A DNA stretch of 64,000 bases from an uncultured Bacteroidales bacterium (GCA_963763215.1 CAVXNX010000004.1:9492-73491), one strand, 5' to 3'. Counted from the first letter of the stretch, positions 1,738-63,746 are shown. The notes: a model not told the origin generated them from the sequence alone. Made by a program: numbers and translations.

Positions 1738-3234
1738 ATGAAAAACGGGACTTTCCGATATGCGCTAACTGTCGTCCTGCTGGCCTTTGCGTTCAGGCTC
1801 AGTGGGCAGGACAACACACCCCCGGCCAGGCCCTACATCACCTATGTAACGGTCGATACGGCCACAGGTAACACGCTCATTTACTGGACGAAGAGCCCGT
1901 CAGCTGATGTCGAGAAGTATGATCTCTATTACGAGATCACGACGGTTAACGGGTATGAAGGGGTTAAATTCGATTCGGTACCGGCCACCGTTTCACAGTA
2001 TACCCATGTCAACAGTGGGGCCGACAGGGCAAGCATCCTGTACAGCGTCACAGCAGTGGATAGTTCAGGGAATGAAAGCATCCGGAAACCGGGTTTACAC
2101 AGTACCGTTTTCACCAGCCTCGTCTACGATTCATGCCTGGCGCGGATGGCGGTGACATGGAACCGTTACCAGGGATGGGACGACAATGTTTCCGGTTACA
2201 GGCTCCTGCGCAGCATCGACAACGCCCCTTTTGGGATACTCACCGGTTTGAGTCCCGGCGACTCGGCATATACAGACGTTGATATAGCGGAGAACACCGG
2301 GTACCGGTACCTTATCCAGGCGGTTAAAAATGACGGACTCGAATCAATGTCGAATATTGCGGCCTGGTACACCCGCATGCCACCGTCCCCCGATAACCTT
2401 CTCATCGACTATGCCACGGTGCCTTCCGCGAATGTCGTCGACATCTCATTTTCCTATACACCGAATGGAGAGGTGAGCGATTTCAGCCTGCTGCGCTCAA
2501 GTAACCCCGTGTCCGATTTTCAGTCGGTCGGTATCGTGAACGGACTTACCTCCCCGCAGTATACCTTTACAGACAACATCATCACTTCATCGGAACAATA
2601 TTATTACAAGATCGGATCACTGAACGGATGCGGGGCCGTTATCGGCACATCCAATTTTGCCGTGAATATACTCTTGCGCGGCGACAGCCTGAGAGACGGG
2701 GTCAAACTGACCTGGAACAAATATGATCAATGGAGCGACGGCGTCCGGGAATACCGCATCTTCCGCAAGGAGGCCGACGGAAGCTTCAGTCAACTGGACG
2801 CCACTTCACCCCTGGTGACCACTTACATCGACCATCTCACGGGGATCGCCGGACATCACCTCACCGGTGAACTGACCTATTATGTGACCGCGGTGAGAAA
2901 TTCAGGAGGCATCACTTCACAATCCAACCCTGTCAGGATCCAGGTCAGCACGCACCTCCTCGATATTGCCGACGCGTTCACCCCCAACGGTGACGGCCGG
3001 AACGACAATTTCTTCCCCGTTTTTGATTTCAAACCCACCGAATTTCTCATGATCATCTATAACCGCGCCGGAACCCCGGTCTACACCACCGAAGATCCCG
3101 GGAAGGGATGGGACGGTACTGTAAACGGCAATAACATGGCCCCGGAAGGCGTTTACATCTATCACATCCAGTTCAAATCGTATAATGGGACGAGAGAGGA
3201 AAAAACAGGACATGTCACTGTTTTTTATCCCTGA
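1738..3234 (+). CDS. Secreted FN3/Ig-like protein with gliding-motility-associated (T9SS type B) C-terminal domain
   Basis: Signal peptide MKNGTFRYALTVVLLAFAFRLSG; FN3-like beta motifs; C-terminal AFTPNGDGRNDNF...IYNRAG...GWDG...EGVYIY...GHVTV. Confidence 0.85.
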   Translation: MKNGTFRYALTVVLLAFAFRLSGQDNTPPARPYITYVTVDTATGNTLIYWTKSPSADVEKYDLYYEITTVNGYEGVKFDSVPATVSQYTHVNSGADRASILYSVTAVDSSGNESIRKPGLHSTVFTSLVYDSCLARMAVTWNRYQGWDDNVSGYRLLRSIDNAPFGILTGLSPGDSAYTDVDIAENTGYRYLIQAVKNDGLESMSNIAAWYTRMPPSPDNLLIDYATVPSANVVDISFSYTPNGEVSDFSLLRSSNPVSDFQSVGIVNGLTSPQYTFTDNIITSSEQYYYKIGSLNGCGAVIGTSNFAVNILLRGDSLRDGVKLTWNKYDQWSDGVREYRIFRKEADGSFSQLDATSPLVTTYIDHLTGIAGHHLTGELTYYVTAVRNSGGITSQSNPVRIQVSTHLLDIADAFTPNGDGRNDNFFPVFDFKPTEFLMIIYNRAGTPVYTTEDPGKGWDGTVNGNNMAPEGVYIYHIQFKSYNGTREEKTGHVTVFYP

Positions 3235-3265
3235 TCACCGGAAAATATTTATCGGATAAAAACAT

Positions 3266-3273
3266 TAACTTTG
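3266..3273 (+). promoter_or_regulatory. -7 box (TAACTTTG) for relA/spoT
   Basis: Exact TAnnTTTG about 35 nt upstream of the ATG at 3308. Confidence 0.6.
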
Positions 3274-3307
3274 TACGTTGGCTCGTCCTTATTGTCAGGG
3301 AGGAAGA

Positions 3308-5542
3308 ATGGCAGTTATCGAGAAAAAAGAACAGACGGATATTCAGAGGCAGTTTGAGGATCTCCTGGAAAATTGTATTCACTGCAATACCGAAGAGGAC
3401 CGTAAACTGATCATCAAGGCATTCAATTTTGCCTCTGATGCCCACCGGAGCATGCGCAGAAAGTCCGGTGAGCCGTACATCGTCCATCCCATTGCCGTGG
3501 CCAAAATCGTGAACCGGGAAATTGGACTGGGTGTGAAATCGGTGGTATCTGCTCTCCTCCACGATGTTGTCGAAGACACAGACTATACCCTCGAAGACAT
3601 CGAGGCGCAGTTCGGAAAGAAAATCGCCACCATCATCGACGGACTGACGAAAATTTCCGGCGTTTTCGACAACAACTCTTCCCTTCAGGCCGAAAATTTC
3701 CGCAAGATGCTGCTCACCCTCTCCGAAGATGTGCGGGTGATCCTGATCAAGCTGGCCGACCGCCTGCACAACATGCGGACACTCGACTCGCTGCCCAGGC
3801 ACAAACAGATCAAGATCTCGGGGGAAACCATCTACCTTTTCGCGCCCCTGGCGCATCGCCTGGGACTTTATGCCATCAAAACGGAACTGGAGGATCTCAG
3901 CCTGAAATACCGGTATCCGAAGATCTACAATGAGATCACCGCCAAATTGAAGGATGATGAAGAACGACGGGTCCATCTCATCAACAAATTTTCGCTGCCC
4001 ATTATCGACAAGCTCGAAAAAAATCACATCACCTTCGATATCAGCGGAAGGCCCAAATCCATCTATTCCATCTGGAATAAGATGCAGCAGAAAAACGTGA
4101 ACTTCGAGGAGATTTTCGATCTGCTGGCCATCCGGATCGTTTTTGATCCCATGCCCGACATTCCCGAAAAGACGCAGTGCTGGAATATCTATTCCCTGAT
4201 CACCGACATATACCCGCCCCGGCCCGACCGGCTGCGCGACTGGGTATCGACGCCGAAAGCCAACGGCTACGAAGCCCTTCATGCCACTGTTATGGGGCCG
4301 TACGGAAAATGGATCGAGGTGCAGATCAGATCACGCCGGATGGATGAAATCGCCGAACGCGGCTTTGCTGCCCACTGGAAATACAAGGAACACGGGGCCA
4401 CCGATTCGGAACTCGACAAATGGATCAAACGCATCCGCGAAGTGCTGGAAAGCCCGGATTCGAATGCCCTCGAATTCATGGATGACTTTAAGCTGAACCT
4501 GTTCGCTTCAGAGATCTTCATCTTCACACCACAGGGACATATCAAAACCCTCCCCCAGGGATCCACAGCCCTCGATTTTGCCTATGAGATCCATACCGAA
4601 ATCGGGAACAAAGCCATTGGGGCCAAACTGAACCACCACCTCGTTCCCCTCAATTACCAGCTTCACAGTGGCGACCAGGTCGAGATCATCACCTCCGAAA
4701 ACCAGAAGGTCACCAGGGAGAGACTGGATTATGCCATCACGGCCAAGGCGAAAACCGCCATCAAATCGGCGTTGAAAGCCGAAACCAAAAACCGGATCGA
4801 AAAGGGAAAGAAAATCCTCGAAGAAAAGCTGAAAGAACTCAAGGTCCAGCCCAGCTCCAGGGTGTTTAAGAAATTGCTGCCCGCCTATGAGGCAAACACC
4901 AAGGATGAACTCTACAGTAAAATAGGCACCGGCATCGTCTCACTCGATGAACTGAAGAAAATCCTGCGAAAAAACTCGAGAAACAAATGGGTCAGGTACT
5001 GGGAAGTGTCGGTTGGGAAAAACGCCCGCAACCGCAACGAGGAAGAAGAAGAAAAAACGACCGACCGGAAAACCTTTGTCGCCCGGGAACAGATCAACGA
5101 GGAAGAACGCAACTATACCCTCGCCCGCTGCTGCAACCCGATCCCCGGCGATGAGGTGATCGGCTACCGCGACGAGGAAGACAATGTCATTATCCACCAG
5201 TCGCGGTGCGAAAATGCCATCCGCCTGATGTCGAGTGAAGGCAACCGGGTCATCCCCGTAAAATGGACCACCCACAAAATCCTTTCCTACCTCGCCAGGA
5301 TCCATCTCGACGGGTATGATAAATTCGGCATTTACAACAATATCACCACTATTATTTCCAAGGAACTGAGCGTCAATATCAGGACGATAAACCTTCATGG
5401 CCACGACGGAGTCTTTGAAGGAACCATCGACCTGTATGTCCACAATACGAGTGACCTTAATAACCTGATCATGAACCTGATCAAGATTAAAGGCGTCGAA
5501 AGTGTGCACAGGGTCGATGCCACTGAGATCCGGGAGGTTTGA
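3308..5542 (+). CDS. relA: Long bifunctional RelA/SpoT (p)ppGpp synthetase/hydrolase
   Basis: RKSGEPYIVHP, HDVVED hydrolase motif, IKLADRLHNMRTL, PKANGYEALH, AERGFAAHWKYK, TGS domain (LDFAYEIHTEIG), CCNPIPGD, C-terminal ACT. Confidence 0.96.
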   Translation: MAVIEKKEQTDIQRQFEDLLENCIHCNTEEDRKLIIKAFNFASDAHRSMRRKSGEPYIVHPIAVAKIVNREIGLGVKSVVSALLHDVVEDTDYTLEDIEAQFGKKIATIIDGLTKISGVFDNNSSLQAENFRKMLLTLSEDVRVILIKLADRLHNMRTLDSLPRHKQIKISGETIYLFAPLAHRLGLYAIKTELEDLSLKYRYPKIYNEITAKLKDDEERRVHLINKFSLPIIDKLEKNHITFDISGRPKSIYSIWNKMQQKNVNFEEIFDLLAIRIVFDPMPDIPEKTQCWNIYSLITDIYPPRPDRLRDWVSTPKANGYEALHATVMGPYGKWIEVQIRSRRMDEIAERGFAAHWKYKEHGATDSELDKWIKRIREVLESPDSNALEFMDDFKLNLFASEIFIFTPQGHIKTLPQGSTALDFAYEIHTEIGNKAIGAKLNHHLVPLNYQLHSGDQVEIITSENQKVTRERLDYAITAKAKTAIKSALKAETKNRIEKGKKILEEKLKELKVQPSSRVFKKLLPAYEANTKDELYSKIGTGIVSLDELKKILRKNSRNKWVRYWEVSVGKNARNRNEEEEEKTTDRKTFVAREQINEEERNYTLARCCNPIPGDEVIGYRDEEDNVIIHQSRCENAIRLMSSEGNRVIPVKWTTHKILSYLARIHLDGYDKFGIYNNITTIISKELSVNIRTINLHGHDGVFEGTIDLYVHNTSDLNNLIMNLIKIKGVESVHRVDATEIREV

Positions 5543-38119: not shown

Positions 38120-38186
38120 GTTTCCTTCAGCCGTTCTCCCATCGAGAAATGGCAAACCGGCGATTGGAATACTCCCCATTTAGTGC

Positions 38187-38194
38187 TAATTTTG
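38187..38194 (+). promoter_or_regulatory. -7 box (TAATTTTG) for metH-metF
   Basis: Exact TAnnTTTG upstream of metH. Confidence 0.55.
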
Positions 38195-38259
38195 GAGATT
38201 CACGGGAAACGGGATCTCATTGGCACCGTTATCCCATAGATAAACGCGATGATCATCAC

Positions 38260-41962
<3,703 letters not shown>

Positions 41963-43548: not shown

Positions 43549-43594
43549 TAAAAAAAAGGGCCGACTGCCATAAAGCAGATCAGCCCCCCTTTTC
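43549..43594 (-). terminator. Intrinsic terminator of the OPT-PqqD-pepD unit
   Basis: Minus-strand GGG-CTGATCTGC-TTTATG-GCAGTCGG-CCC hairpin followed by a long T-run. Confidence 0.6.
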
Positions 43595-43613
43595 GTTCAT
43601 CCCTGATCCGGTA

Positions 43614-45074
43614 CTATTTTTTTTCCGGTATATTCGCCAGGGTTTCCACCAGGTAGTCCCAGAATTTCCCGACCGATTCGATGTTTACTTTTTCGTCGGG
43701 GGAATGGGGGAACCGGATGGTGGGCCCGAAGGAAATCAGGTCCATCCCCGGGTAAACATCTCCGATGATGCCACATTCCAGGCCGGCGTGAATGACTTTA
43801 ATCTCGGGATCGTTGCCGTATTTTTTCTTATACACGTTCCGCATGGTGTTCAGAATGGGTGATTTCATATCCGGCTTCCAGCCCGGGTAGATGCCGTCGT
43901 GGACGACCTGTGCACCGGCGAGGGCCATAACCGATTCGGTCATATTCCCGAGATCAAATTTGGCGGTATCGACGGAACTGCGCAGCAGGCAGAGGACGCT
44001 GACCTTGCCGTTTTCCGATTTAACGATCGCCAGGTTGGTGGACGTTTCCACGATCCCGGGCGTCTCCGTGCTCATCCGGATGGCACCGTTGGGAATACCA
44101 TAGACCATCTTGATCAGCCGGTCCGTGGAATCCTGGTCCATCACGGTTGAAGGCGGATCGGCCGGGCTGGCCTTGAAACTCAGGTGGGGCTCTGTCCCGG
44201 AGAGTTCATGAATGAATATCCCTTCGTATTCTTCCACCGCTTTCAGGAAGCCATCGGCTTTGTCGCCGGGTACGGCCACCACGGCGAAAGCTTCACGGGG
44301 AATGGCATTACGCAGGCTGCCTCCGTCGATGGATGACAGACGCATGCCGAATTCTTTGGCGCCGTGCCAGAGAAAGCGGAACATCAGTTTATTGGCATTT
44401 GCCCGTCCGAGATCAATGTCGAGACCCGAATGGCCGCCTTTCAGACCGGTAACCGACAGCCGGAAAGCTTTCATCCCGGAAGGCACTTTTTCTTCGTTGT
44501 ATTTCAGTGTGGCGGAGGTGTTCATCCCACCGGCACAACCAATGTAAAGCTGACCTTCATCTTCCGAATCGAGGTTCAGGAGGATGTCGCCTTTGAGAAG
44601 TCCGGGCTTCAGGGCGAAGGCTCCGGTCATTCCGGTTTCTTCGTCGATGGTGAGCAGGACTTCCAATGGACCGTGTTTCACCGACTTCTCTTCAAGCACG
44701 GCGAGAGCTGCAGCCACGCCGATGCCGTTATCCGCGCCAAGGGTGGTTCCTTCAGCAGTAACCCATTCCCCTTCAACAAAAGCCTGGATCGGGTCTTTTT
44801 CAAAATCGTGGGTTTTGTCGCTGTTTTTCTGCGGCACCATATCGAGATGAGACTGCAGCACGACGCCCATTTTATGTTCCATACCGGGTGTGGCCGGTTT
44901 GCGGATGATGACATTGCCGACTTCATCGACAGTCGTCTCAAGTCCAAGGTCTTCACCAAATTTCCGGGCAAAGGCGGTCGCCTGTGCTTCCTTTTTGGAA
45001 GGACGGGGAATCCGGGTTAACTGGTAGAAATTTTCCCAGAGGGAATGCGGGTACAACGATTTAATGGCAATCAT
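43614..45074 (-). CDS. pepD: Aminoacyl-histidine (cytosol non-specific) dipeptidase, M20C
   Basis: LQSHLDMV, TTLGADNGIG, DEETGM, NLDSE, GGHSG, HAGLECG, PHSPDE. Confidence 0.95.
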   Translation of the reverse strand: MIAIKSLYPHSLWENFYQLTRIPRPSKKEAQATAFARKFGEDLGLETTVDEVGNVIIRKPATPGMEHKMGVVLQSHLDMVPQKNSDKTHDFEKDPIQAFVEGEWVTAEGTTLGADNGIGVAAALAVLEEKSVKHGPLEVLLTIDEETGMTGAFALKPGLLKGDILLNLDSEDEGQLYIGCAGGMNTSATLKYNEEKVPSGMKAFRLSVTGLKGGHSGLDIDLGRANANKLMFRFLWHGAKEFGMRLSSIDGGSLRNAIPREAFAVVAVPGDKADGFLKAVEEYEGIFIHELSGTEPHLSFKASPADPPSTVMDQDSTDRLIKMVYGIPNGAIRMSTETPGIVETSTNLAIVKSENGKVSVLCLLRSSVDTAKFDLGNMTESVMALAGAQVVHDGIYPGWKPDMKSPILNTMRNVYKKKYGNDPEIKVIHAGLECGIIGDVYPGMDLISFGPTIRFPHSPDEKVNIESVGKFWDYLVETLANIPEKK

Positions 45075-45133
45075 TTTATCTGTTTTATGTGATGAGTATA
45101 TGATTAGTCCTGCACCTGGTCATGGTCCCGTTT

Positions 45134-45507
45134 TTAGTCCATCAGCTGGAAAAAGGTGATGTAACGGCGTTCATAGAGCATGGAGGCAAACGTGTTCAGC
45201 CGGTCTTCAAGCCCGGCCAGCGATGCTTCATCGAGAGCCGAATGTTTCCGGAGATGATCGGCGATCTGCCGGACATTTCGCTCACCGTCCATCAGCCTTC
45301 CATGCCTCGGATCCAATCACATCGAGCTTGATTTTGAAATACAGGAAACGTGTCCGGGGGAACATGGCATACGTGATCTTCACTCCGGAACTTGGGAACG
45401 AGCACGGTGACCCTTCCTTCATTCTCTTCATGAGCCATGGTCCTTACCGGGATAAGATCCATCGCATTGATACTCTTTAAAACACGTCGCCGTTCGAAAT
45501 AGTTCAT
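45134..45507 (-). CDS. Stand-alone PqqD/RRE-family protein of about 123 aa, two +1 frameshifts near 45382 and 45298
   Basis: Joined translation MNYFERRRVLKSINAMDLIPVRTMAHEENEGRVTVLVPKFRS-KITYAMFPRTRFLYFKIKLDVIGSEAW-LMDGERNVRQIADHLRKHSALDEASLAGLEDRLNTFASMLYERRYITFFQLMD; carries the RRE pattern LD.IG...W...DG.R.V..I...L. Confidence 0.78.
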
Positions 45508-45535
45508 GTCCCGATGGGGTTTGGATGACACAAGG

Positions 45536-45564
45536 CAGGGACGCACCGGGAAGGCACGTCCCTG
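45536..45564. other. Intergenic stem-loop between the OPT and PqqD genes
   Basis: CAGGGACG-N13-CGTCCCTG; no T-run on the minus strand. Confidence 0.5.
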
Positions 45565-45584
45565 GAATGAAGATCAAAAAGGGG

Positions 45585-47657
45585 TTACATCTCCACCTTT
45601 GGCGGAGCGGGTTCGTCAGGCTTTCCGGCGTTGTTCAACGGGATTCTCACCAGGATCAGACCGATGATGCCCAGGACGAACAACCCGGCGATATACGACG
45701 GATTTTTAAAGACCGCACCCGGAAATTTATCGAAGGTGGCAAAGATGGCAAAGATCAGTCCGACGAGAGCTTCGCCGGCGATGAGACCGGACGCCAGGAG
45801 GACACCGGTATTTTCGACCCGTGTTTTCTGAGCCTCGTTAAATTTCCGTCTCTCGGTAAAGTTAGTGACAATGCCTTTGATCAATCCGCCGATGAAGATG
45901 GCAAATGTTGTTTCAAGCGGGAGGTACATGCCGACGCAAACCAGCATCGGGCTTTTCACCTGCATGAGGATAAAGCCGAGACCCATGAGCATCCCGGTGA
46001 TGATCAGCGGCCAGGCCATCTGCCCGCCCACGATCCCCTGGGAGAGGATGGCCATGAGGTTGGACTGGGGAGCGGAAAGCTTCCGGCTTCCAAAACCGCC
46101 CGCATAACCTTCAACGACGCCGGTATTGATGTCGCCCTTGTTCAGGTAGGACAAGACGAAGAACATCACCGAACCGGCGATGACCACCCCGATAATGTCG
46201 CCGATCTGCATTCTCCAGGGCGTCCCGCCGAGGATATGCCCGGCTTTCAGATCCTGGAGCATCTCACCTGCCACGGCAGCGGAAACACACACCACGGCAG
46301 CCACACCGAGGGTTGAAGCGACGCCTTCATTTCCCTTGGCGCCCAGGATGACCATGATCAGAGCCGTCACCACAAGGGCGGTCAGCGTAAGACCACTGAT
46401 CGGGTTGTTGCTGGAGCCCATGATACCGACAAGGTAACCTGAGACGGCGGCAAAGAAAAAGGCCAGGATGATCATGACCGTCGCCGCCACCACGGCAACG
46501 ATGACACTGGTGTGAAAAACGAACCAGGTGATCCCGAAGGTGGTGATGGCCACGGCAATAATGCCGATCATGATCCAGTTGAAACTGATGTCTTTTTCAT
46601 TCCGCGGAATGCCGGTGTCAATCCCCGCAGCCGCTTTCTTGACATCATCGATCGATCGTGACACCCCGGCGAAGAGACTCTTTCGCATCATGTAGAGGGT
46701 ATAAACGGCACTCACCAGCATACCGCCGATGGCGATTGGTCGGACAATGTATTTCCAGACATCGTAAGCCGTGTTGACCCAGGCCTTTTGCATCGCGACC
46801 TGCTGCGTCAGCCCCTCGGACTGGACCAGGCTGGCAGCCAGAGCATTGATATCGAGACCCGGCGCCAGGAAATAGAGGATCATGGGTGTGAGAAGACCCC
46901 AGGCGATGAGGCTCCCGCTGAAGTTCAGCGAAGCCAGGCGGGGCCCGATGATGTATCCGACCCCGGTATAAGCCGGACTGATGCCCGGGCTCCCGATGAG
47001 AGCGCCGCCTTTTCCGAAAAATGCGGTGCCGGTAATTTTCTGTTTGGCAAAGATCACAAACTGTTCCCAGTAGGTGGAGAAGACTTTAAATTCGCCCAGC
47101 GCCTTAACAATCCCACCAAAGATCATGGCCCCAAAGAGCAGTTTCGAGCCGCCGCCGCCCTGGCTTCCCGACTTATGAATTTCGGCAGCAGCGATGGATT
47201 CGGGAAAAGGAAGTTCCGCATCGTCAACCATCACTTTCCGCAGCAGAGCGACGAACATGATCCCCAGGATACCCCCGGCAATGAGAATGATCGTGGTTAT
47301 TCCGTAGGTAAAGTAGTTGTTGACTTCAATACCCTGTTCCATGTTCTGCTGGTAAATGATGTAGAATGCGGGAATGGTGAAAATTGCACCCGCGGCGACC
47401 GATTCACCGATGGAGCCGACGGTTCGTGCAAAATTCTCTTCGAGGATCGATCCCCGCATTGCCTTGATAAGAGCCATTCCGATTACCGCGGCCGGATAAG
47501 TGGCTGCGATGGTCATCCCGGCTTTCAGCCCCAGGTAGGCATTCGCCGCCCCCAGAATAACTGCCAGTACGATACCGATAATCAAAGCCCTGATCGTAAA
47601 TTCAGCCATTCGTGTCTCGGCTGAAACGAAAGGAACAAACTTTCTCTCTTGGGACAT
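45585..47657 (-). CDS. OPT-family oligopeptide transporter
   Basis: ANAYLGLKAGMTIAATYPAAVI, LPFPESIAAAE, GSSNNPISG, LQDLKAGHILGGTPWRMQ, APQSNLMA, ASGLIAGE. Confidence 0.95.
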   Translation of the reverse strand: MSQERKFVPFVSAETRMAEFTIRALIIGIVLAVILGAANAYLGLKAGMTIAATYPAAVIGMALIKAMRGSILEENFARTVGSIGESVAAGAIFTIPAFYIIYQQNMEQGIEVNNYFTYGITTIILIAGGILGIMFVALLRKVMVDDAELPFPESIAAAEIHKSGSQGGGGSKLLFGAMIFGGIVKALGEFKVFSTYWEQFVIFAKQKITGTAFFGKGGALIGSPGISPAYTGVGYIIGPRLASLNFSGSLIAWGLLTPMILYFLAPGLDINALAASLVQSEGLTQQVAMQKAWVNTAYDVWKYIVRPIAIGGMLVSAVYTLYMMRKSLFAGVSRSIDDVKKAAAGIDTGIPRNEKDISFNWIMIGIIAVAITTFGITWFVFHTSVIVAVVAATVMIILAFFFAAVSGYLVGIMGSSNNPISGLTLTALVVTALIMVILGAKGNEGVASTLGVAAVVCVSAAVAGEMLQDLKAGHILGGTPWRMQIGDIIGVVIAGSVMFFVLSYLNKGDINTGVVEGYAGGFGSRKLSAPQSNLMAILSQGIVGGQMAWPLIITGMLMGLGFILMQVKSPMLVCVGMYLPLETTFAIFIGGLIKGIVTNFTERRKFNEAQKTRVENTGVLLASGLIAGEALVGLIFAIFATFDKFPGAVFKNPSYIAGLFVLGIIGLILVRIPLNNAGKPDEPAPPKVEM

Positions 47658-47785
47658 TTTTTTTCAGGTTTTTTAATTAAAGATCGGTAAATGTAACAAT
47701 TTATCCCGAAACCGATCGTTGGTACGCTTTCGCAGCACGCAAAATTTATATGTTTTATGATATACGGAGAGCGAGGCAGGCGGGA

Positions 47786-60577: not shown

Positions 60578-62615
60578 TTATCTCTGTTTGCGGAATTCAG
60601 GTACCGTGTCCCTCCCATCGTTCAGGTGTAATTCGCGTGGGGAGAGCTTCGGCACCGGTATTTTTTCCAGGGCGACTTCCTGGTGAGTGATGGTGAAATC
60701 CTTGTTGAAATGGACGATGTTGAGCGATTGGTTTTCGAATCCGCCGCCGGGGGATTTTTTTCTAAAATGGTAACCCGGCAGAAGCTGACCGTCCCGGCTG
60801 TCGAGGATTGTCCCGACGAACCGGTTGTCGTTATTCCGGATCGCGTCAAGGAACGAAAAAGTGGCATCATGACCCAGGAAGGCATAAGGGCAACCTTTCC
60901 GGGTGGTGAAGGATGGTTCGGCTTTGAAGGCACTCCGGAACCTGGCCAGAAAGTCTTCAATCTGCTGATCATCAAAGCTGTAATAATAGGGAGTGATGTA
61001 GGTCAGTCCCAGTTTATGGAAGGCCTGGAAATCCGAATTCTGGAAGACCGGCCATTGAGGCATCCCGAAAACCTGGATATCAAAATTTCTGGCTTCGAAA
61101 TACAACTGGGAGACCACGGCTGTCACAAACGACTCATCGGTCACGGGAATAATGACGATATTCTTTTTCTCCTTTGAGAGGGCCTGGCCCAGGTCTGCGG
61201 AAATATCGGCCCTGGCGATATTGTCGTATACGATTTCCTTGATGATCGCATTCTCAGAATAGGTGTAATGCTGGAGCGATTTCATCAGTTCATTCTTGAA
61301 ATATTCGATCTTGTTCACGTCCAGGCTGTCGGCCCCGTAAATGAAAACAAAATTCGAATTGAAATCCCTGGCCAGGTATTGTGATGCCAGCTTAAATTCC
61401 GTCGTATAGGAAGGATTGAGCTGGAACAGGTAAGGATTGGAGGCTGTCAGGCTGTCGCTGGCATAAAACGGGCATATCAGCGGGATATGGTGTGTGCGTG
61501 AGAAGTCATTAACGATCTCCACATTCCAGGAGTAGAAGGGCCCGATGATAAGGTCGACATCCCGGAAGAAGGGTGAAGCCAGGATCTTCCTGCATGTGGG
61601 AAGGGCTTTTATGGGTGTCGAAATAATGGATATCCATCGACAAGCCTTCCTGCCTCAGTGAATCGATCGCGATAAGACTCCCCTCCATGAATTCCAAAAA
61701 GTTCACCGATGCAGGAAGCAATTCGGAAGCGGCCTCATCGATATCTTTTACCCCCATTTCCGATTCTTCCTCGTTTTCGGCGGGCTGGGGCTGTTCCTGA
61801 TTATAGGCAAAGGGAATGAGGTAGGCGACCTTCAGCTGTTTTCCGGGATAATAAGGCAGAGTCATCGCATACTCATCAAGGGAAAATTCGGGAATGGTAT
61901 CGGACTGCATGGGCGTCAGGGTATCCGGGGTCAATTCCGCCTCCTTTTCACCCGCCGCAACTCGGGCTCCCCGGCTTGGGAATCCGGATGATCTGTCCGG
62001 TTTTCAGCCCTCCCCACTGCAGTTCAGGATTGTACTTTTTAATGTCGTCGATACTGACATCGTATCGCTTTGAAATTCCGAACATGGTATCCCGCCGTCG
62101 CACCTTATGGAGGATAAAATCGTCATCGTTATAAACCGACTTGTGCCCGGGGGATAAGGATTACCTGTCCGATCTGAAGATTTGTATAATCAAGTTCAGG
62201 ATTCGCCTGCCGGATGGCATCGGGTGAAACATTGTATATCCGGGACAGGGCAAAAATATTTTCACCCTGACTTCAGGGTATGATAGATGAACTTGGTGGT
62301 ATCGACATTTTGCGCCTGGGTAAAAGGCCTGGAAGGGACCTGTTCAGGGATCTTCAGCATCTGTCCCACCTGCAGCCCGGAATACACTCCGGGATTCTCC
62401 AGGGCGATGTCCTTTTCGGTTACGTTATAGGCCTTACTGATGGAAAACAGGGTCTGTCCGGGTTTGACCACATGGATGTAATAGACCTTGCCTTCGATGA
62501 TAACCTTACTGTCCGATTTTTTAACCGTCACCGGTTCCTGGGCATTCAGCACAGGGGAAAGAGCCATAAAAACAAAAAAGATCACAAAGGCCAGAACCTT
62601 CTTATTCATATTCAT
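60578..62615 (-). CDS. LysM-repeat protein with a C-terminal periplasmic-binding-protein-like domain, several frameshifts
   Basis: Signal peptide; HVVKPGQTLFSISKAYNV...GQMLKIP and further LysM repeats; KVAYLIPF, FMEGSLIAIDSL, YFDT, IIGPF, NPYLFQLNPS, AFLGHD. Confidence 0.82.
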
Positions 62616-62777
62616 AAACGTCGCTTTTCTGAAAGGATATTTTCCACCTTATACGTCATCTCCTCCTGCCGGTTCCCACATAATTCTCTGCCGTCTAACA
62701 GGCCGGTAAGGATTCGTAAGGTGGATATTTTCTCCCGCTAAGTTACCGAATAAATAAACAGTATTTAAGCTGAAATA

Positions 62778-63727
62778 TTACAGCGTTTTCAAAGATTCCG
62801 TGATATTTGAAAAGATTCTTTCTTCGATCTTTCCGGATTCGGCCCTCTGGAATGGTTCGCCGGTGATCTTCTCAAACAATTCGATATAACGTTCTGAGAC
62901 CTGGTTGACAAAATCATCGGGCATTTCGGGCATTTTCTGGCCGATCTGACCCTGGAAGCCTCTTTCGATCAGCCATTGCCTGACAAATTCCTTGGAGAGT
63001 TGCCTCTGGGGTTCATCCTTTTGCCTGCCGTTCCTCGTAACCGTCAGCATAGAAATAGCGGGAAGAATCGGGCGTATGGATTTCATCGATGAGGATGATC
63101 TCGCCGTCAGCCTTCCCGAATTCATACTTGGTATCCACCAGGATCAGTCCTTTTTCGGCAGCCATTTCCGTGCCCCGCTGAAAGAGTTTCCGGGTATAGT
63201 TTTCCAGGACACCGTAATCGGCAGCGGAGACGAGACCCTGGTCGATGATCTCCTGCTTTGAGATATCCAGGTCATGACCTTCATCGGCTTTGGTAGTCGG
63301 GGTGATCAATGGCGTTAGGCAGACGGTCGTGCTCTTTAAGTCCGTCGGGCAGCGGTTCTCCGCAAAGCTCCCTTTTACCCGCCTTGTATTCCCTCCAGGC
63401 ATGGCCCGTGAGATAGGCGCGAATGACCATCTCCACCTTGAAAGGTTCGGCGAACTGCCCGACGGTGACCATTGGATCGGGACTGGCCAGTTTCCAGTTC
63501 GGAACAATATCGGCGGTTGCATCGAGAAACCGCGTGGCAATCTGGTTCAGGACCTGACCTTTGAACGGAATGCCTTTGGGCAGGACCACATCGAAAGCGG
63601 AAATCCTGTCGGTCACCACCATGACGAGGTATTTGCCGTTGATATTATAGACATCTCTGACCTTCCCCTTATACAGATTTTTCTGACCGGGGAATTGAAA
63701 CGAAGTACTAATAATTGCCTGATTCAT
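62778..63727 (-). CDS. purC: SAICAR synthetase, two +1 frameshifts near 63316 and 63016
   Basis: [66 protein letters not shown]. Confidence 0.95.
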
Positions 63728-63746
63728 GAATAGCGTTTTTTAACGT

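What the first reader, a model, noticed from the sequence alone, without database searches (positions are those of the whole stretch)
43614..47657. OPT importer - stand-alone PqqD/RRE - PepD operon: a RiPP-recognition fold apparently repurposed for peptide uptake and catabolism
Seen: three co-oriented genes with 77- and 59-nt gaps and one terminator after pepD. The middle gene is hidden in the ORF track by two +1 indels but reconstructs to about 123 aa with the RRE pattern (beta strands VTVLVPKF and FKIKLD, then IGSEAW.LMDGERNVRQIADHL...EDRLNTFASMLYERRYI). No radical SAM, YcaO, lasso cyclase, pqq gene or precursor peptide is nearby. Established: PqqD/RRE domains bind RiPP leader peptides and present them to modifying enzymes; OPTs import oligopeptides or metal chelates; PepD cleaves dipeptides. 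Inference: a non-biosynthetic RRE acts as a cytoplasmic peptide-binding adaptor that gates the OPT, hands imported peptides to PepD, or scavenges foreign RiPPs or leader peptides. The OPT's own cytoplasmic tail (N-terminal MSQERKFVPFVSAE) is a candidate leader mimic. I am not aware of a characterised function for this arrangement.
Basis: partly seen in the sequence, partly recalled or inferred. Interest (0 to 1): 0.75.

Follow-up and report, generated by a model that had tools for sequence, protein, structure and literature searches.

The report
Peptide importer, PqqD-like protein, dipeptidase operon
A small protein with the fold that normally guides antibiotic-like peptide synthesis sits, in many Bacteroidota, between a peptide importer gene and a dipeptide-cutting enzyme gene, so it probably helps peptide feeding, though nobody has tested how.

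Summary
On the minus strand lie an OPT-family transporter (45585-47657), a small gene split over three frames (45134-45507) and a PepD-type M20 dipeptidase (43614-45074), with gaps of 77 and 59 nt and a terminator after pepD. The middle gene carries two 1-nt insertions. At least ten similar frame switches break six other conserved genes in the same 64 kb, so assembly error is the likeliest cause.

Intact orthologues (about 124 aa) belong to the PqqD family, and the predicted fold matches RiPP-recognition elements. No RiPP enzyme is nearby.

The order transporter, small protein, peptidase is kept widely in Bacteroidota: 41 of 47 and 26 of 30 loci. A second cassette has an MFS transporter, a related small protein and an M29 peptidase. 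The small protein is dispensable: 12 of 45 genomes with the same OPT clade lack it.

My best reading is a cytoplasmic peptide-binding adaptor in peptide import and hydrolysis. The mechanism is inferred only. The complex prediction gave no verdict, and the family is basic (median pI 9.55), so a regulatory role stays open. The OPT tail as leader mimic is weakened. I found no paper on this arrangement.

The parts
45585..47657 (-). OPT-family oligopeptide transporter, 690 aa. First gene of the operon.
   Evidence: PF03169 E 2.7e-87. TIGR00733 349.8 bits against a cut-off of 182.5. Orthologues of 58-92% identity lie upstream of the small gene in 44 of 47 loci and 27 of 30 loci.
45134..45507 (-). 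Small PqqD/RRE-fold gene, 123 aa if read through. In this assembly it is broken by two 1-nt insertions.
   Evidence: Three-frame reading. DNA alignment with 4 intact same-genus orthologues. Orthologues reach the PF05402 cut-off in 7 of 11. AF2 model has pLDDT 89. Fold matches: TbiB1 Z 10.4, PqqD Z 8.4.
45372..45372 (-). First extra base (approximate place), shifting frame 0 to frame +1.
   Evidence: Alignment column 136 is a gap in all 4 orthologues.
45293..45293 (-). Second extra base (approximate place), shifting to the third frame.
   Evidence: Alignment column 215 is a gap in all 4 orthologues.
43614..45074 (-). PepD-type M20C dipeptidase (aminoacyl-histidine / Xaa-His dipeptidase subfamily), 486 aa. 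Last gene of the operon.
   Evidence: TIGR01893 607.8 bits against a cut-off of 343.75. The E. coli PepD equivalog model NF011600 scores 534 bits, below its cut-off of 991. PF01546 and PF07687 match.
43550..43594 (-). Intrinsic terminator after pepD: G+C-rich hairpin followed by a U-run.
   Evidence: Sequence read directly. Fold -38.9 kcal/mol, z -3.59.

Best explanation
This is a conserved Bacteroidota operon for taking up and hydrolysing peptides. It encodes an OPT-family importer, a small basic cytoplasmic protein with the PqqD/RRE fold, and a PepD-type M20 dipeptidase.

The small gene is real and under purifying selection. Its two frameshifts in this window are most likely consensus errors of an indel-rich assembly.

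The small protein is not a RiPP-biosynthesis chaperone. It most likely works as an optional cytoplasmic adaptor. I infer that it binds an incoming peptide as an added beta-strand in the groove between its beta-sheet and last helix, as RREs bind leader peptides. I also infer that it couples the transporter to the peptidase, by presenting substrate or by switching the enzyme on, much as lasso-peptide B1 proteins serve the B2 peptidase.

Shown: gene order, family, predicted fold, conservation, co-occurrence. Inferred: peptide binding, partners and effect.
For: Family and fold.
- PF05402 reaches the cut-off in 7 of 11 orthologues.
- A profile of 44 orthologues hits a lasso PqqD chaperone, 9x90_B, at E 8e-4 and TbiB1 at E 0.04.
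- The AF2 model has pLDDT 89 and pTM 0.77.
- VIA-align gives 8hkr_B Z 12.1, TbiB1 Z 10.4 (82 of 84 residues aligned), lasso B1 6jx3 Z 9.3 and PqqD 5sxy Z 8.4. Foldseek gives TbiB1 E 2.7e-3.

Context.
- Both OPT upstream and PepD downstream are present in 41 of 47 loci from GTDB genomes (44 with OPT, 43 with PepD).
- Both are present in 26 of 30 loci of a phylum-wide sample.
- A second cassette, MFS transporter, related PqqD protein, unknown 240-aa protein and M29 peptidase, occurs in 7 of 9 further loci fetched. The same kind of cassette lies behind a different OPT clade in 5 of 5 others.
- One relative has OPT, the small protein and a POT transporter.

Co-occurrence in 401 genomes.
- All 46 genomes with the small protein have an OPT (142 of 401 overall) and a PepD (182 of 401 overall).
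- 33 of the 46 have the same OPT clade as the window.

Coupling and fusion.
- The median gap from the small gene to pepD is 11 nt; 28 of 62 gaps are 2 nt or less. The median gap from OPT to the small gene is 70 nt.
- One lineage has the small gene and pepD in one 641-aa open frame, seen in two records that are 640 of 641 identical.

Selection and assembly quality.
- pN is about 0.15 and pS about 0.75 among same-genus orthologues.
- Six other conserved genes in the window, including the MetH-like gene, also switch frame against two relatives. The junctions I could read directly (about 19811, 30717, 40897) each have one extra base.
- The genome scores 80% complete in only 31 contigs.

Support from a paper. 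In Porphyromonas gingivalis an opt mutant took up less of several dipeptides and a pot opt double mutant scarcely grew (PMC8048996, passages seen).
Against: - No experiment or model shows that the small protein binds a peptide, OPT or PepD.
- It is dispensable. 12 of 45 genomes with this OPT clade lack it, and in 10 of them PepD directly follows OPT.
- The family is basic: median pI 9.55, net charge about +5.7, N-terminal 15 residues about +4. That fits DNA or membrane binding at least as well as peptide binding.
- Winged-helix DNA-binding regulators (Fur, MecI and others) also appear in the fold list at Z 5-6.
- In one locus a radical SAM gene, not pepD, follows the small gene.
- The frameshifts could not be checked in reads, so a real pseudogene in this strain is not excluded.
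- Genomes of one phylum are related, so the counts overstate independence.
Confidence: 0.45

Rival explanations
1. The small protein regulates the transporter rather than handing substrate on. It docks on the cytoplasmic face of OPT (or of the MFS transporter) through its basic N-terminal helix and gates import according to cytoplasmic peptide load.
For: - It always lies directly after a transporter gene: OPT in 44 of 47 and 27 of 30 loci, MFS in the second cassette.
- All 46 genomes that carry it have an OPT.
- Its N-terminus is basic and strongly conserved.
- In the second cassette the gene overlaps the end of the MFS gene (L156).
- Earlier notes of this scan report PqqD-type proteins beside OPT-fold proteins in other phyla (leads only).
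Against: - The OPT N-terminal motif does not track the presence of the small protein.
- The gene is more tightly coupled to pepD than to OPT.
- It also occurs beside PepD without an adjacent OPT (L041, L059, L109/L162).
Confidence: 0.2
2. It is a small winged-helix DNA-binding regulator, possibly peptide-sensing, that controls the operon. The likeness to RREs reflects only the shared fold.
For: - Median pI 9.55.
- Winged-helix regulators appear in the fold list at Z 5-6.
- The RRE-Finder paper says most RREs show homology to DNA-binding domains and that helix-turn-helix regulators are its main false positives (PMC7470986, passages seen).
Against: - RRE and PqqD structures score clearly higher (Z 8.4-12.1) than regulators (Z 6.7 or less) and cover the whole domain.
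- The sequence profile hits PqqD-type chaperones, not regulators.
- The gene sits inside the operon and is often translationally coupled to pepD.
- A fusion to PepD exists.
Confidence: 0.15
3. It is a true RiPP recognition element. It either serves a pathway whose enzyme and precursor lie elsewhere, or binds imported foreign RiPPs or leader peptides for detoxification or scavenging.
For: - Family membership and fold.
- Public records call it 'PqqD family peptide modification chaperone'.
- One locus (L043) has a radical SAM gene overlapping its end.
Against: - The conserved neighbours are a transporter and a peptidase in 41 of 47 and 26 of 30 loci.
- The gaps of 77 and 59 nt leave no room for a precursor gene.
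- There is no radical SAM gene in the window and no YcaO in the genome.
- The genome's other PqqD gene (C23) has its own ATP-grasp partner.
- NCBIfam RiPP-chaperone models are matched only far below their cut-offs.
Confidence: 0.07
4. In this particular strain the gene is a genuine pseudogene with two real frameshifts, and the operon works as OPT plus PepD alone.
For: - Two indels fall within 374 nt, neither in a homopolymer run.
- Natural OPT-PepD operons without the gene exist in 10 genomes.
- Reads did not cover the place.
Against: - Six other conserved genes in the same 64 kb carry at least ten frame switches.
- The genome is only 80% complete by marker genes although it is in 31 contigs.
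- All three pieces remain open and about 70% identical to orthologues right up to the natural stop.
Confidence: 0.12

Closest known systems
Lasso-peptide B1 proteins (TbiB1, PDB 5v1u/5v1v; 6jx3_B): discrete RREs that bind the leader and serve the B2 peptidase
   Same: Stand-alone small protein with the same predicted fold (Z 10.4, rmsd 2.7 over 82 residues; Z 9.3). Encoded directly before a peptidase gene, often translationally coupled to it. I did not read the paper on peptidase activation by a leader-bound RRE; I saw it only as a reference entry (Kretsch 2023) in PMC12710340.
   Different: The partner here is an M20 metallo-dipeptidase, not a cysteine protease. There is no precursor gene and no cyclase. 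The protein carries about 20 extra N-terminal residues and a helical insert at residues 43-54. The family is basic. NF033536 is matched at only 21 bits against a cut-off of 80.
PqqD (PQQ biosynthesis peptide chaperone; PF05402, TIGR03859; PDB 3g2b, 5sxy)
   Same: Pfam family membership of orthologues. Fold Z 8.4 and 7.0.
   Different: TIGR03859 scores 16.9 bits against a cut-off of 46. No pqq genes or radical SAM partner are nearby.
Porphyromonas gingivalis OPT (peptide uptake alongside POT)
   Same: A Bacteroidota OPT-family transporter with genetic evidence for peptide uptake (PMC8048996, passages seen).
   Different: That paper mentions no PqqD-like partner in the passages I saw. I did not test whether the P. 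gingivalis gene belongs to the same OPT clade.
RRE-like domains in non-RiPP proteins (Rv2067c methyltransferase 8hkr, rickettsial PKMT 5doo, NO66)
   Same: These are the best or high structural matches (8hkr_B Z 12.1). They show that the fold is used outside RiPP synthesis.
   Different: Those are domains fused to enzymes. This is a free-standing protein in a transport and catabolism operon.
ABC (MacB/FtsX) plus OPT-fold plus PqqD gene clusters noted earlier in this scan (other phyla)
   Same: A small PqqD-type protein is encoded with an OPT-fold membrane protein (AI notes, not checked here).
   Different: The operon architecture differs: ABC motors and a pseudo-peptidase. No sequence look-alike of this protein was found among earlier findings.

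Membership tests
PqqD family (Pfam PF05402) | Match to the family profile at or above the gathering score (23.4 bits) | tested here: met
   Orthologues: 7 of 11 score 24.4-37.0 bits and 4 of 11 score 15.6-20.1. Members of the second cassette score 33.8-44.8 bits. The window's own broken pieces do not reach it (14.3 bits).
PqqD family / RRE fold | Three-stranded sheet plus three-helix winged-helix fold superposable on solved RREs | tested here: met
   Predicted model only (pLDDT 89). TbiB1 Z 10.4, 6jx3_B Z 9.3, PqqD 5sxy Z 8.4, ThcOx Z 8.1. Foldseek TbiB1 TM 0.70-0.72 on the target.
RiPP recognition element (functional sense) | Encoded with a RiPP-modifying enzyme and a precursor peptide | tested here: not met
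   The neighbours are OPT and PepD in 41 of 47 and 26 of 30 loci. There is no radical SAM gene in the window and no YcaO in the genome. The intergenic gaps are 77 and 59 nt. One exception, L043, has a radical SAM gene.
RiPP recognition element (functional sense) | Binds a leader or substrate peptide in the groove between beta3 and alpha3 | not testable with these tools
   No coordinates or binding assay were available. The conserved residues L61, D62, G65, W69, R102, F106, L110 and Y111 lie in these elements.
Named RiPP chaperone equivalogs (TIGR03859 PqqD, NF033536 lasso, TIGR04302, TIGR04248) | Score above NCBIfam's curated cut-off | tested here: not met
   Best scores are 23.1, 21.3, 21.0 and 16.9 bits against cut-offs of 100, 100, 80 and 46.
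OPT oligopeptide transporter family (PF03169 / TIGR00733) | Full-length profile match above the cut-off | tested here: met
   294.3 bits over profile positions 1-622 of 623. TIGR00733 scores 349.8 bits against 182.5. The substrate was not tested.
PepD / aminoacyl-histidine dipeptidase subfamily (TIGR01893, MEROPS M20C) | Subfamily profile above the cut-off | tested here: met
   607.8 bits against 343.75. The E. coli PepD equivalog NF011600 is not met (534 against 991). The motifs HLD, GADNG, DEETG and PHSPDE are visible in the translation; their role as metal or catalytic sites is recalled, not tested.

The most novel reading that the evidence does not exclude
PqqD/RRE-fold proteins form a so far unrecognised class of cytoplasmic accessory subunits of peptide importers (OPT and MFS). 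They catch the imported peptide as a beta-strand and pass it to, or switch on, the operon's peptidase. This would be the first non-biosynthetic, nutritional role for the RiPP-recognition fold. It might also be related to the PqqD-OPT pairings that earlier notes of this scan reported in other phyla.
Probability: 0.3. Interest if true: 0.75.

Novelty: new variant of a known kind. Interest (0 to 1): 0.55.

Why it matters
RRE/PqqD domains are used as a class-independent flag for RiPP gene clusters. A large clade gave 639 cluster representatives at E 1e-10 or better and occurs in 35 of 180 sampled Bacteroidota genera. If that clade lives in peptide uptake and catabolism operons, it is a systematic false positive for such genome mining.

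If the adaptor idea holds, it would also show how a leader-peptide-binding fold was recruited into, or came from, primary peptide metabolism.

Bacterial OPT transporters are poorly understood. A dedicated cytoplasmic partner would give a handle on their substrates and regulation in soil and sediment Bacteroidota.

Tried and rejected
- Raw-read check of the two indels. The only run offered held 0.08 of the sampled words, as contigs. When laid on 43600-47700 it gave no cover between 45107 and 45928. The indels therefore could not be checked, and I draw no conclusion from this.
- Complex prediction of OPT (alignment A3, 41 rows) with the small protein (A2, 44 rows). The verdict was 'no answer', score 0.00 against a mark of 0.32, and the controls were not run. 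This is no evidence for or against binding. PepD with the small protein was not tried because the cap is one job.
- OPT N-terminal tail as a leader mimic. The tail is conserved in 45 distinct orthologues, but also in 12 OPTs from genomes without the small protein. I rejected it as a specific co-evolving signal.
- Pattern scan for terminators. It listed nothing after pepD, but direct reading and folding found the terminator.
- Sequence search of PDB with OPT. No match at E 0.001 or better, so no structural template for docking ideas.
- Search for longer fused forms. Only one was found, the 641-aa small protein-PepD frame. That tool warns that finding few is weak evidence.
- Earlier findings by words (all six words) and by sequence returned nothing.
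- Twin-arginine signal idea for the N-terminal RRKILK. I rejected it by eye because no hydrophobic stretch follows. No tool was run.
- Literature searches. These found no paper: PqqD + oligopeptide transporter + dipeptidase; PqqD + 'OPT family'; PqqD + peptide transporter + Bacteroidetes. In RRE-Finder (PMC7470986) and the 2025 RRE paper (PMC12710340) the words oligopeptide and Bacteroid* do not occur in the main text. I did not look at their supplements, which may list such clusters.


Full report
**What is in the window.**
On the minus strand the ORF list shows a 690-aa ORF at 45585..47657 and a 486-aa ORF at 43614..45074. Between them no single ORF spans the gap. A three-frame translation shows one gene running through all three frames:
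- MNYFERRRVLKSINAMDLIPVRTMAHEENEGRVTVLVPKFRSEDH
- ..YAMFPRTRFLYFKIKLDVIGSEAWKA
- ..MDGERNVRQIADHLRKHSALDEASLAGLEDRLNTFASMLYERRYITFFQLMD*

Pfam and NCBIfam name the outer genes without doubt.
- OPT: PF03169 E 2.7e-87; TIGR00733 349.8 bits against a cut-off of 182.5.
- PepD-type M20C dipeptidase: TIGR01893 607.8 bits against 343.75. It stays below the E. coli PepD equivalog cut-off.

A strong hairpin with a U-run follows pepD at about 43550-43594. The consensus scan missed it.

**The frameshifts.**
A DNA alignment with the four intact same-genus orthologues shows exactly two extra single bases in the window, near 45372 and 45293.

I could not check them in reads. The one run offered did not cover 45107-45928.

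Indirect evidence points to assembly error.
- I translated 80 kb of syntenic DNA from two same-genus genomes and laid the ORFs on the window.
- Six further conserved genes switch frame: at about 19811, 21623, 30717 and 40897 (the MetH-like gene), four times in 60587-62633 and twice in 62781-63745.
- Where I could read the junction directly (about 19811, 30717, 40897), consecutive residues are separated by one extra base.
- The genome is rated only 80% complete although it is in 31 contigs.
- The three pieces of the small gene stay open and similar to the orthologues up to the natural stop.

I put about 85% on artefact and about 12% on a real strain-specific pseudogene.

**What the small protein is.**
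The window's own pieces do not reach Pfam's PqqD threshold (14.3 bits on the last piece). Intact orthologues of 122-137 aa were found in same-genus and other genomes.
- Eleven of the twelve aligned orthologues were scanned; 7 reach the PF05402 cut-off and 4 fall just below.
- NCBIfam's named RiPP-chaperone models are hit only far below their cut-offs.
- A profile of 44 orthologues (A2) hits a lasso PqqD chaperone (9x90_B, E 8e-4), TbiB1 (0.04) and PqqD (0.22) among PDB sequences. It also gives one spurious coiled-coil hit.
- The AlphaFold2 model is confident: pLDDT 89, pTM 0.77.
- Its best structural matches are RRE domains: Rv2067c C-terminal domain Z 12.1, TbiB1 Z 10.4 (82 of 84 residues), lasso B1 Z 9.3, PqqD Z 8.4, ThcOx Z 8.1. 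Winged-helix DNA-binding regulators come lower, at Z 5-6. Foldseek agrees more weakly (TbiB1 E 2.7e-3).
- Compared with canonical RREs it has an extra, highly conserved basic N-terminal helix (MNFFERRKILK) and a helical insert at residues 43-54.
- The family is basic: median pI 9.55.
- It is under purifying selection: pN about 0.15 against pS about 0.75.
- Public records call it 'PqqD family protein', 'PqqD family peptide modification chaperone' or 'hypothetical protein'.

**Is the linkage conserved?**
Yes, within Bacteroidota.
- Among 13 true hits in 41 relatives, 12 have OPT before and PepD after the gene. One (L010) has only PepD, sits at a contig start and looks degenerate.
- A pattern scan of GTDB genomes gave 47 loci. 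By record title they are Bacteroidales, Prolixibacteraceae, Draconibacterium, Melioribacter, Stygiobacter and Ignavibacteria. Of these, 44 have OPT upstream, 43 have PepD downstream and 41 have both. A few carry inserted genes: patatin, an ECF sigma/anti-sigma pair, DUF4395.
- In an even sample of 401 genomes of the phylum, 46 genomes (35 of 180 genera) have the protein. Of the 30 best loci, 26 have both neighbours, 1 only OPT, 1 only PepD and 2 neither.

**Co-occurrence in the 401-genome sample.**
I combined three searches.
- All 46 carriers have an OPT; 142 of 401 genomes do.
- All 46 carriers have a PepD; 182 of 401 genomes do.
- 33 carriers have the window's OPT clade.
- 136 PepD genomes lack the small protein, and 111 PepD genomes have no OPT at all.
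- 12 of the 45 genomes with the window's OPT clade lack the small protein. In 10 of these PepD follows OPT directly.

So OPT plus PepD is the core pair and the small protein is an optional third member.

**A second cassette and other variants.**
- The 13 carriers without the window's OPT clade mostly hold a related protein (PF05402 up to 44.8 bits) in another cassette. Its order is MFS transporter, small protein, an unknown roughly 240-aa protein with an N-terminal hydrophobic stretch, then an M29 peptidase.
- That cassette has a different OPT clade directly upstream in L134-L138, L159 and L160, and none in L154-L158.
- One relative has OPT, small protein, POT transporter.
- A third OPT clade (30-33% identity) lies beside a PepT-like M20 peptidase without any PqqD gene.
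- In one locus a radical SAM gene overlaps the end of the small gene in place of pepD (L043).
- In one lineage the small gene and pepD form one 641-aa open frame. It was seen in two records differing by one residue.
- Estimated gaps: OPT to small gene, median 70 nt (n = 63). Small gene to pepD, median 11 nt (n = 62), with 28 of 62 at 2 nt or less. Start codons were guessed from alignments, so single values are approximate.

**RiPP context.**
None was found.
- The flanking genes are MTHFR, a MetH-like gene, a lipoprotein-like ORF, a MORN-repeat protein, a thioredoxin-like protein, DUF4831 and YjeF/Nnr.
- The genome has 23 radical-SAM matches, none in the window, and no YcaO.
- Its only other PqqD gene (C23:64831-65229) lies before an ATP-grasp gene and a PLP-decarboxylase-like gene, which is a separate system.

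**How it most likely works.**
The recurring pattern of transporter, small protein, peptidase, in two cassettes with different transporters and different peptidases, argues that the protein serves peptide import and hydrolysis rather than one particular enzyme.

By analogy with RREs, I favour a cytoplasmic adaptor. RREs bind a peptide as an extra strand and present it to a partner enzyme. In lasso pathways that partner is a peptidase; I saw that paper only as a reference entry. On this model the protein binds imported peptide and couples it to the peptidase (confidence 0.45).

Other readings remain possible:
- gating of the transporter (0.2);
- a small DNA-binding regulator, which is compatible with the basic pI and the fold's kinship to winged-helix regulators (0.15; PMC7470986 passages);
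- a cryptic RiPP role (0.07).

The tail motif is conserved in 45 distinct orthologues, but equally in OPTs of 12 genomes without the small protein.

The single complex prediction (OPT with the small protein) gave no verdict and counts neither way.

**Comparison with what is known, and novelty.**
By sequence and predicted fold the protein is a member of the PqqD family. By context it fails the defining feature of a RiPP recognition element.

I found no paper that joins PqqD with OPT or oligopeptide transporters. The two RRE genome-mining papers do not mention oligopeptide transporters or Bacteroidetes in their main text. I did not look at their supplements.

Genetic evidence that a Bacteroidota OPT takes part in peptide uptake exists for Porphyromonas gingivalis (PMC8048996, passages).

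Earlier notes of this scan describe PqqD-type proteins beside OPT-fold proteins in ABC-type machines of other phyla. I did not test these, and no sequence look-alike was found. They make a general PqqD-transporter theme worth pursuing.

I rate this a new variant of a known kind. The operon and family are real and widespread, the function is untested, and the frameshifts in this window are most likely ordinary assembly noise.

Noticed in passing
window about 19811, 21623, 30717, 40897; 60587-62633 (four places); 62781-63745 (two places): Six further conserved genes, including the MetH-like gene at 38173-41959, switch reading frame against intact orthologues in two same-genus genomes. At the junctions I could read directly there is one extra base. 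The assembly looks rich in insertion errors, which fits its 80% marker completeness in 31 contigs.
   Followed up: partly
G000:C23:64831-67675 (locus L071): The genome's only other PqqD-family gene (36.6 bits) is followed by an ATP-grasp gene (PF15632, ATPgrasp_Ter) and a PLP-dependent decarboxylase-like gene. This is a different, possibly peptide-modifying, system.
   Followed up: partly
L134-L138, L154-L160 (other Bacteroidota genomes): There is a second conserved cassette: MFS transporter, PqqD-like protein, unknown roughly 240-aa protein with an N-terminal hydrophobic stretch, M29 peptidase. A distinct OPT clade lies directly upstream in some loci.
   Followed up: partly
L088-L091: A third OPT clade (30-33% identity to the window's) lies beside a PepT-like M20 peptidase with no PqqD gene. 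OPT plus M20 peptidase pairs therefore recur in several forms.
   Followed up: partly
L032:6001-7923 and protein P0151: The small gene and pepD are in one 641-aa open frame with no stop between them. This was seen in two records that are 640 of 641 identical. It is either a possible natural fusion or merely an open linker before PepD's own start.
   Followed up: partly
L043:4508-5497: In one Bacteroidales MAG a radical SAM gene (PF04055, CxxxCxxC motif) overlaps the end of the small gene where pepD normally lies. A UbiA prenyltransferase and an HD-domain gene follow on the other strand.
   Followed up: no
L010 (G012:C55:1-2187): Only the C-terminal half of the small protein is recognisable before pepD, and no OPT of E 1e-30 or better was found in that 100%-complete genome. 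This may be a decaying copy where the transporter is lost, but the locus sits at a contig start.
   Followed up: no
G000:C22:27095-28543: The window's genome has a second PepD paralogue (51% identity) away from this operon.
   Followed up: no
L159 (G425:C1:2948800-2959200), 1790-3729: The OPT gene upstream of the MFS, PqqD and M29 genes is split into three consecutive ORFs in a genome rated 99% complete. It may be a pseudogene or frameshifts.
   Followed up: no
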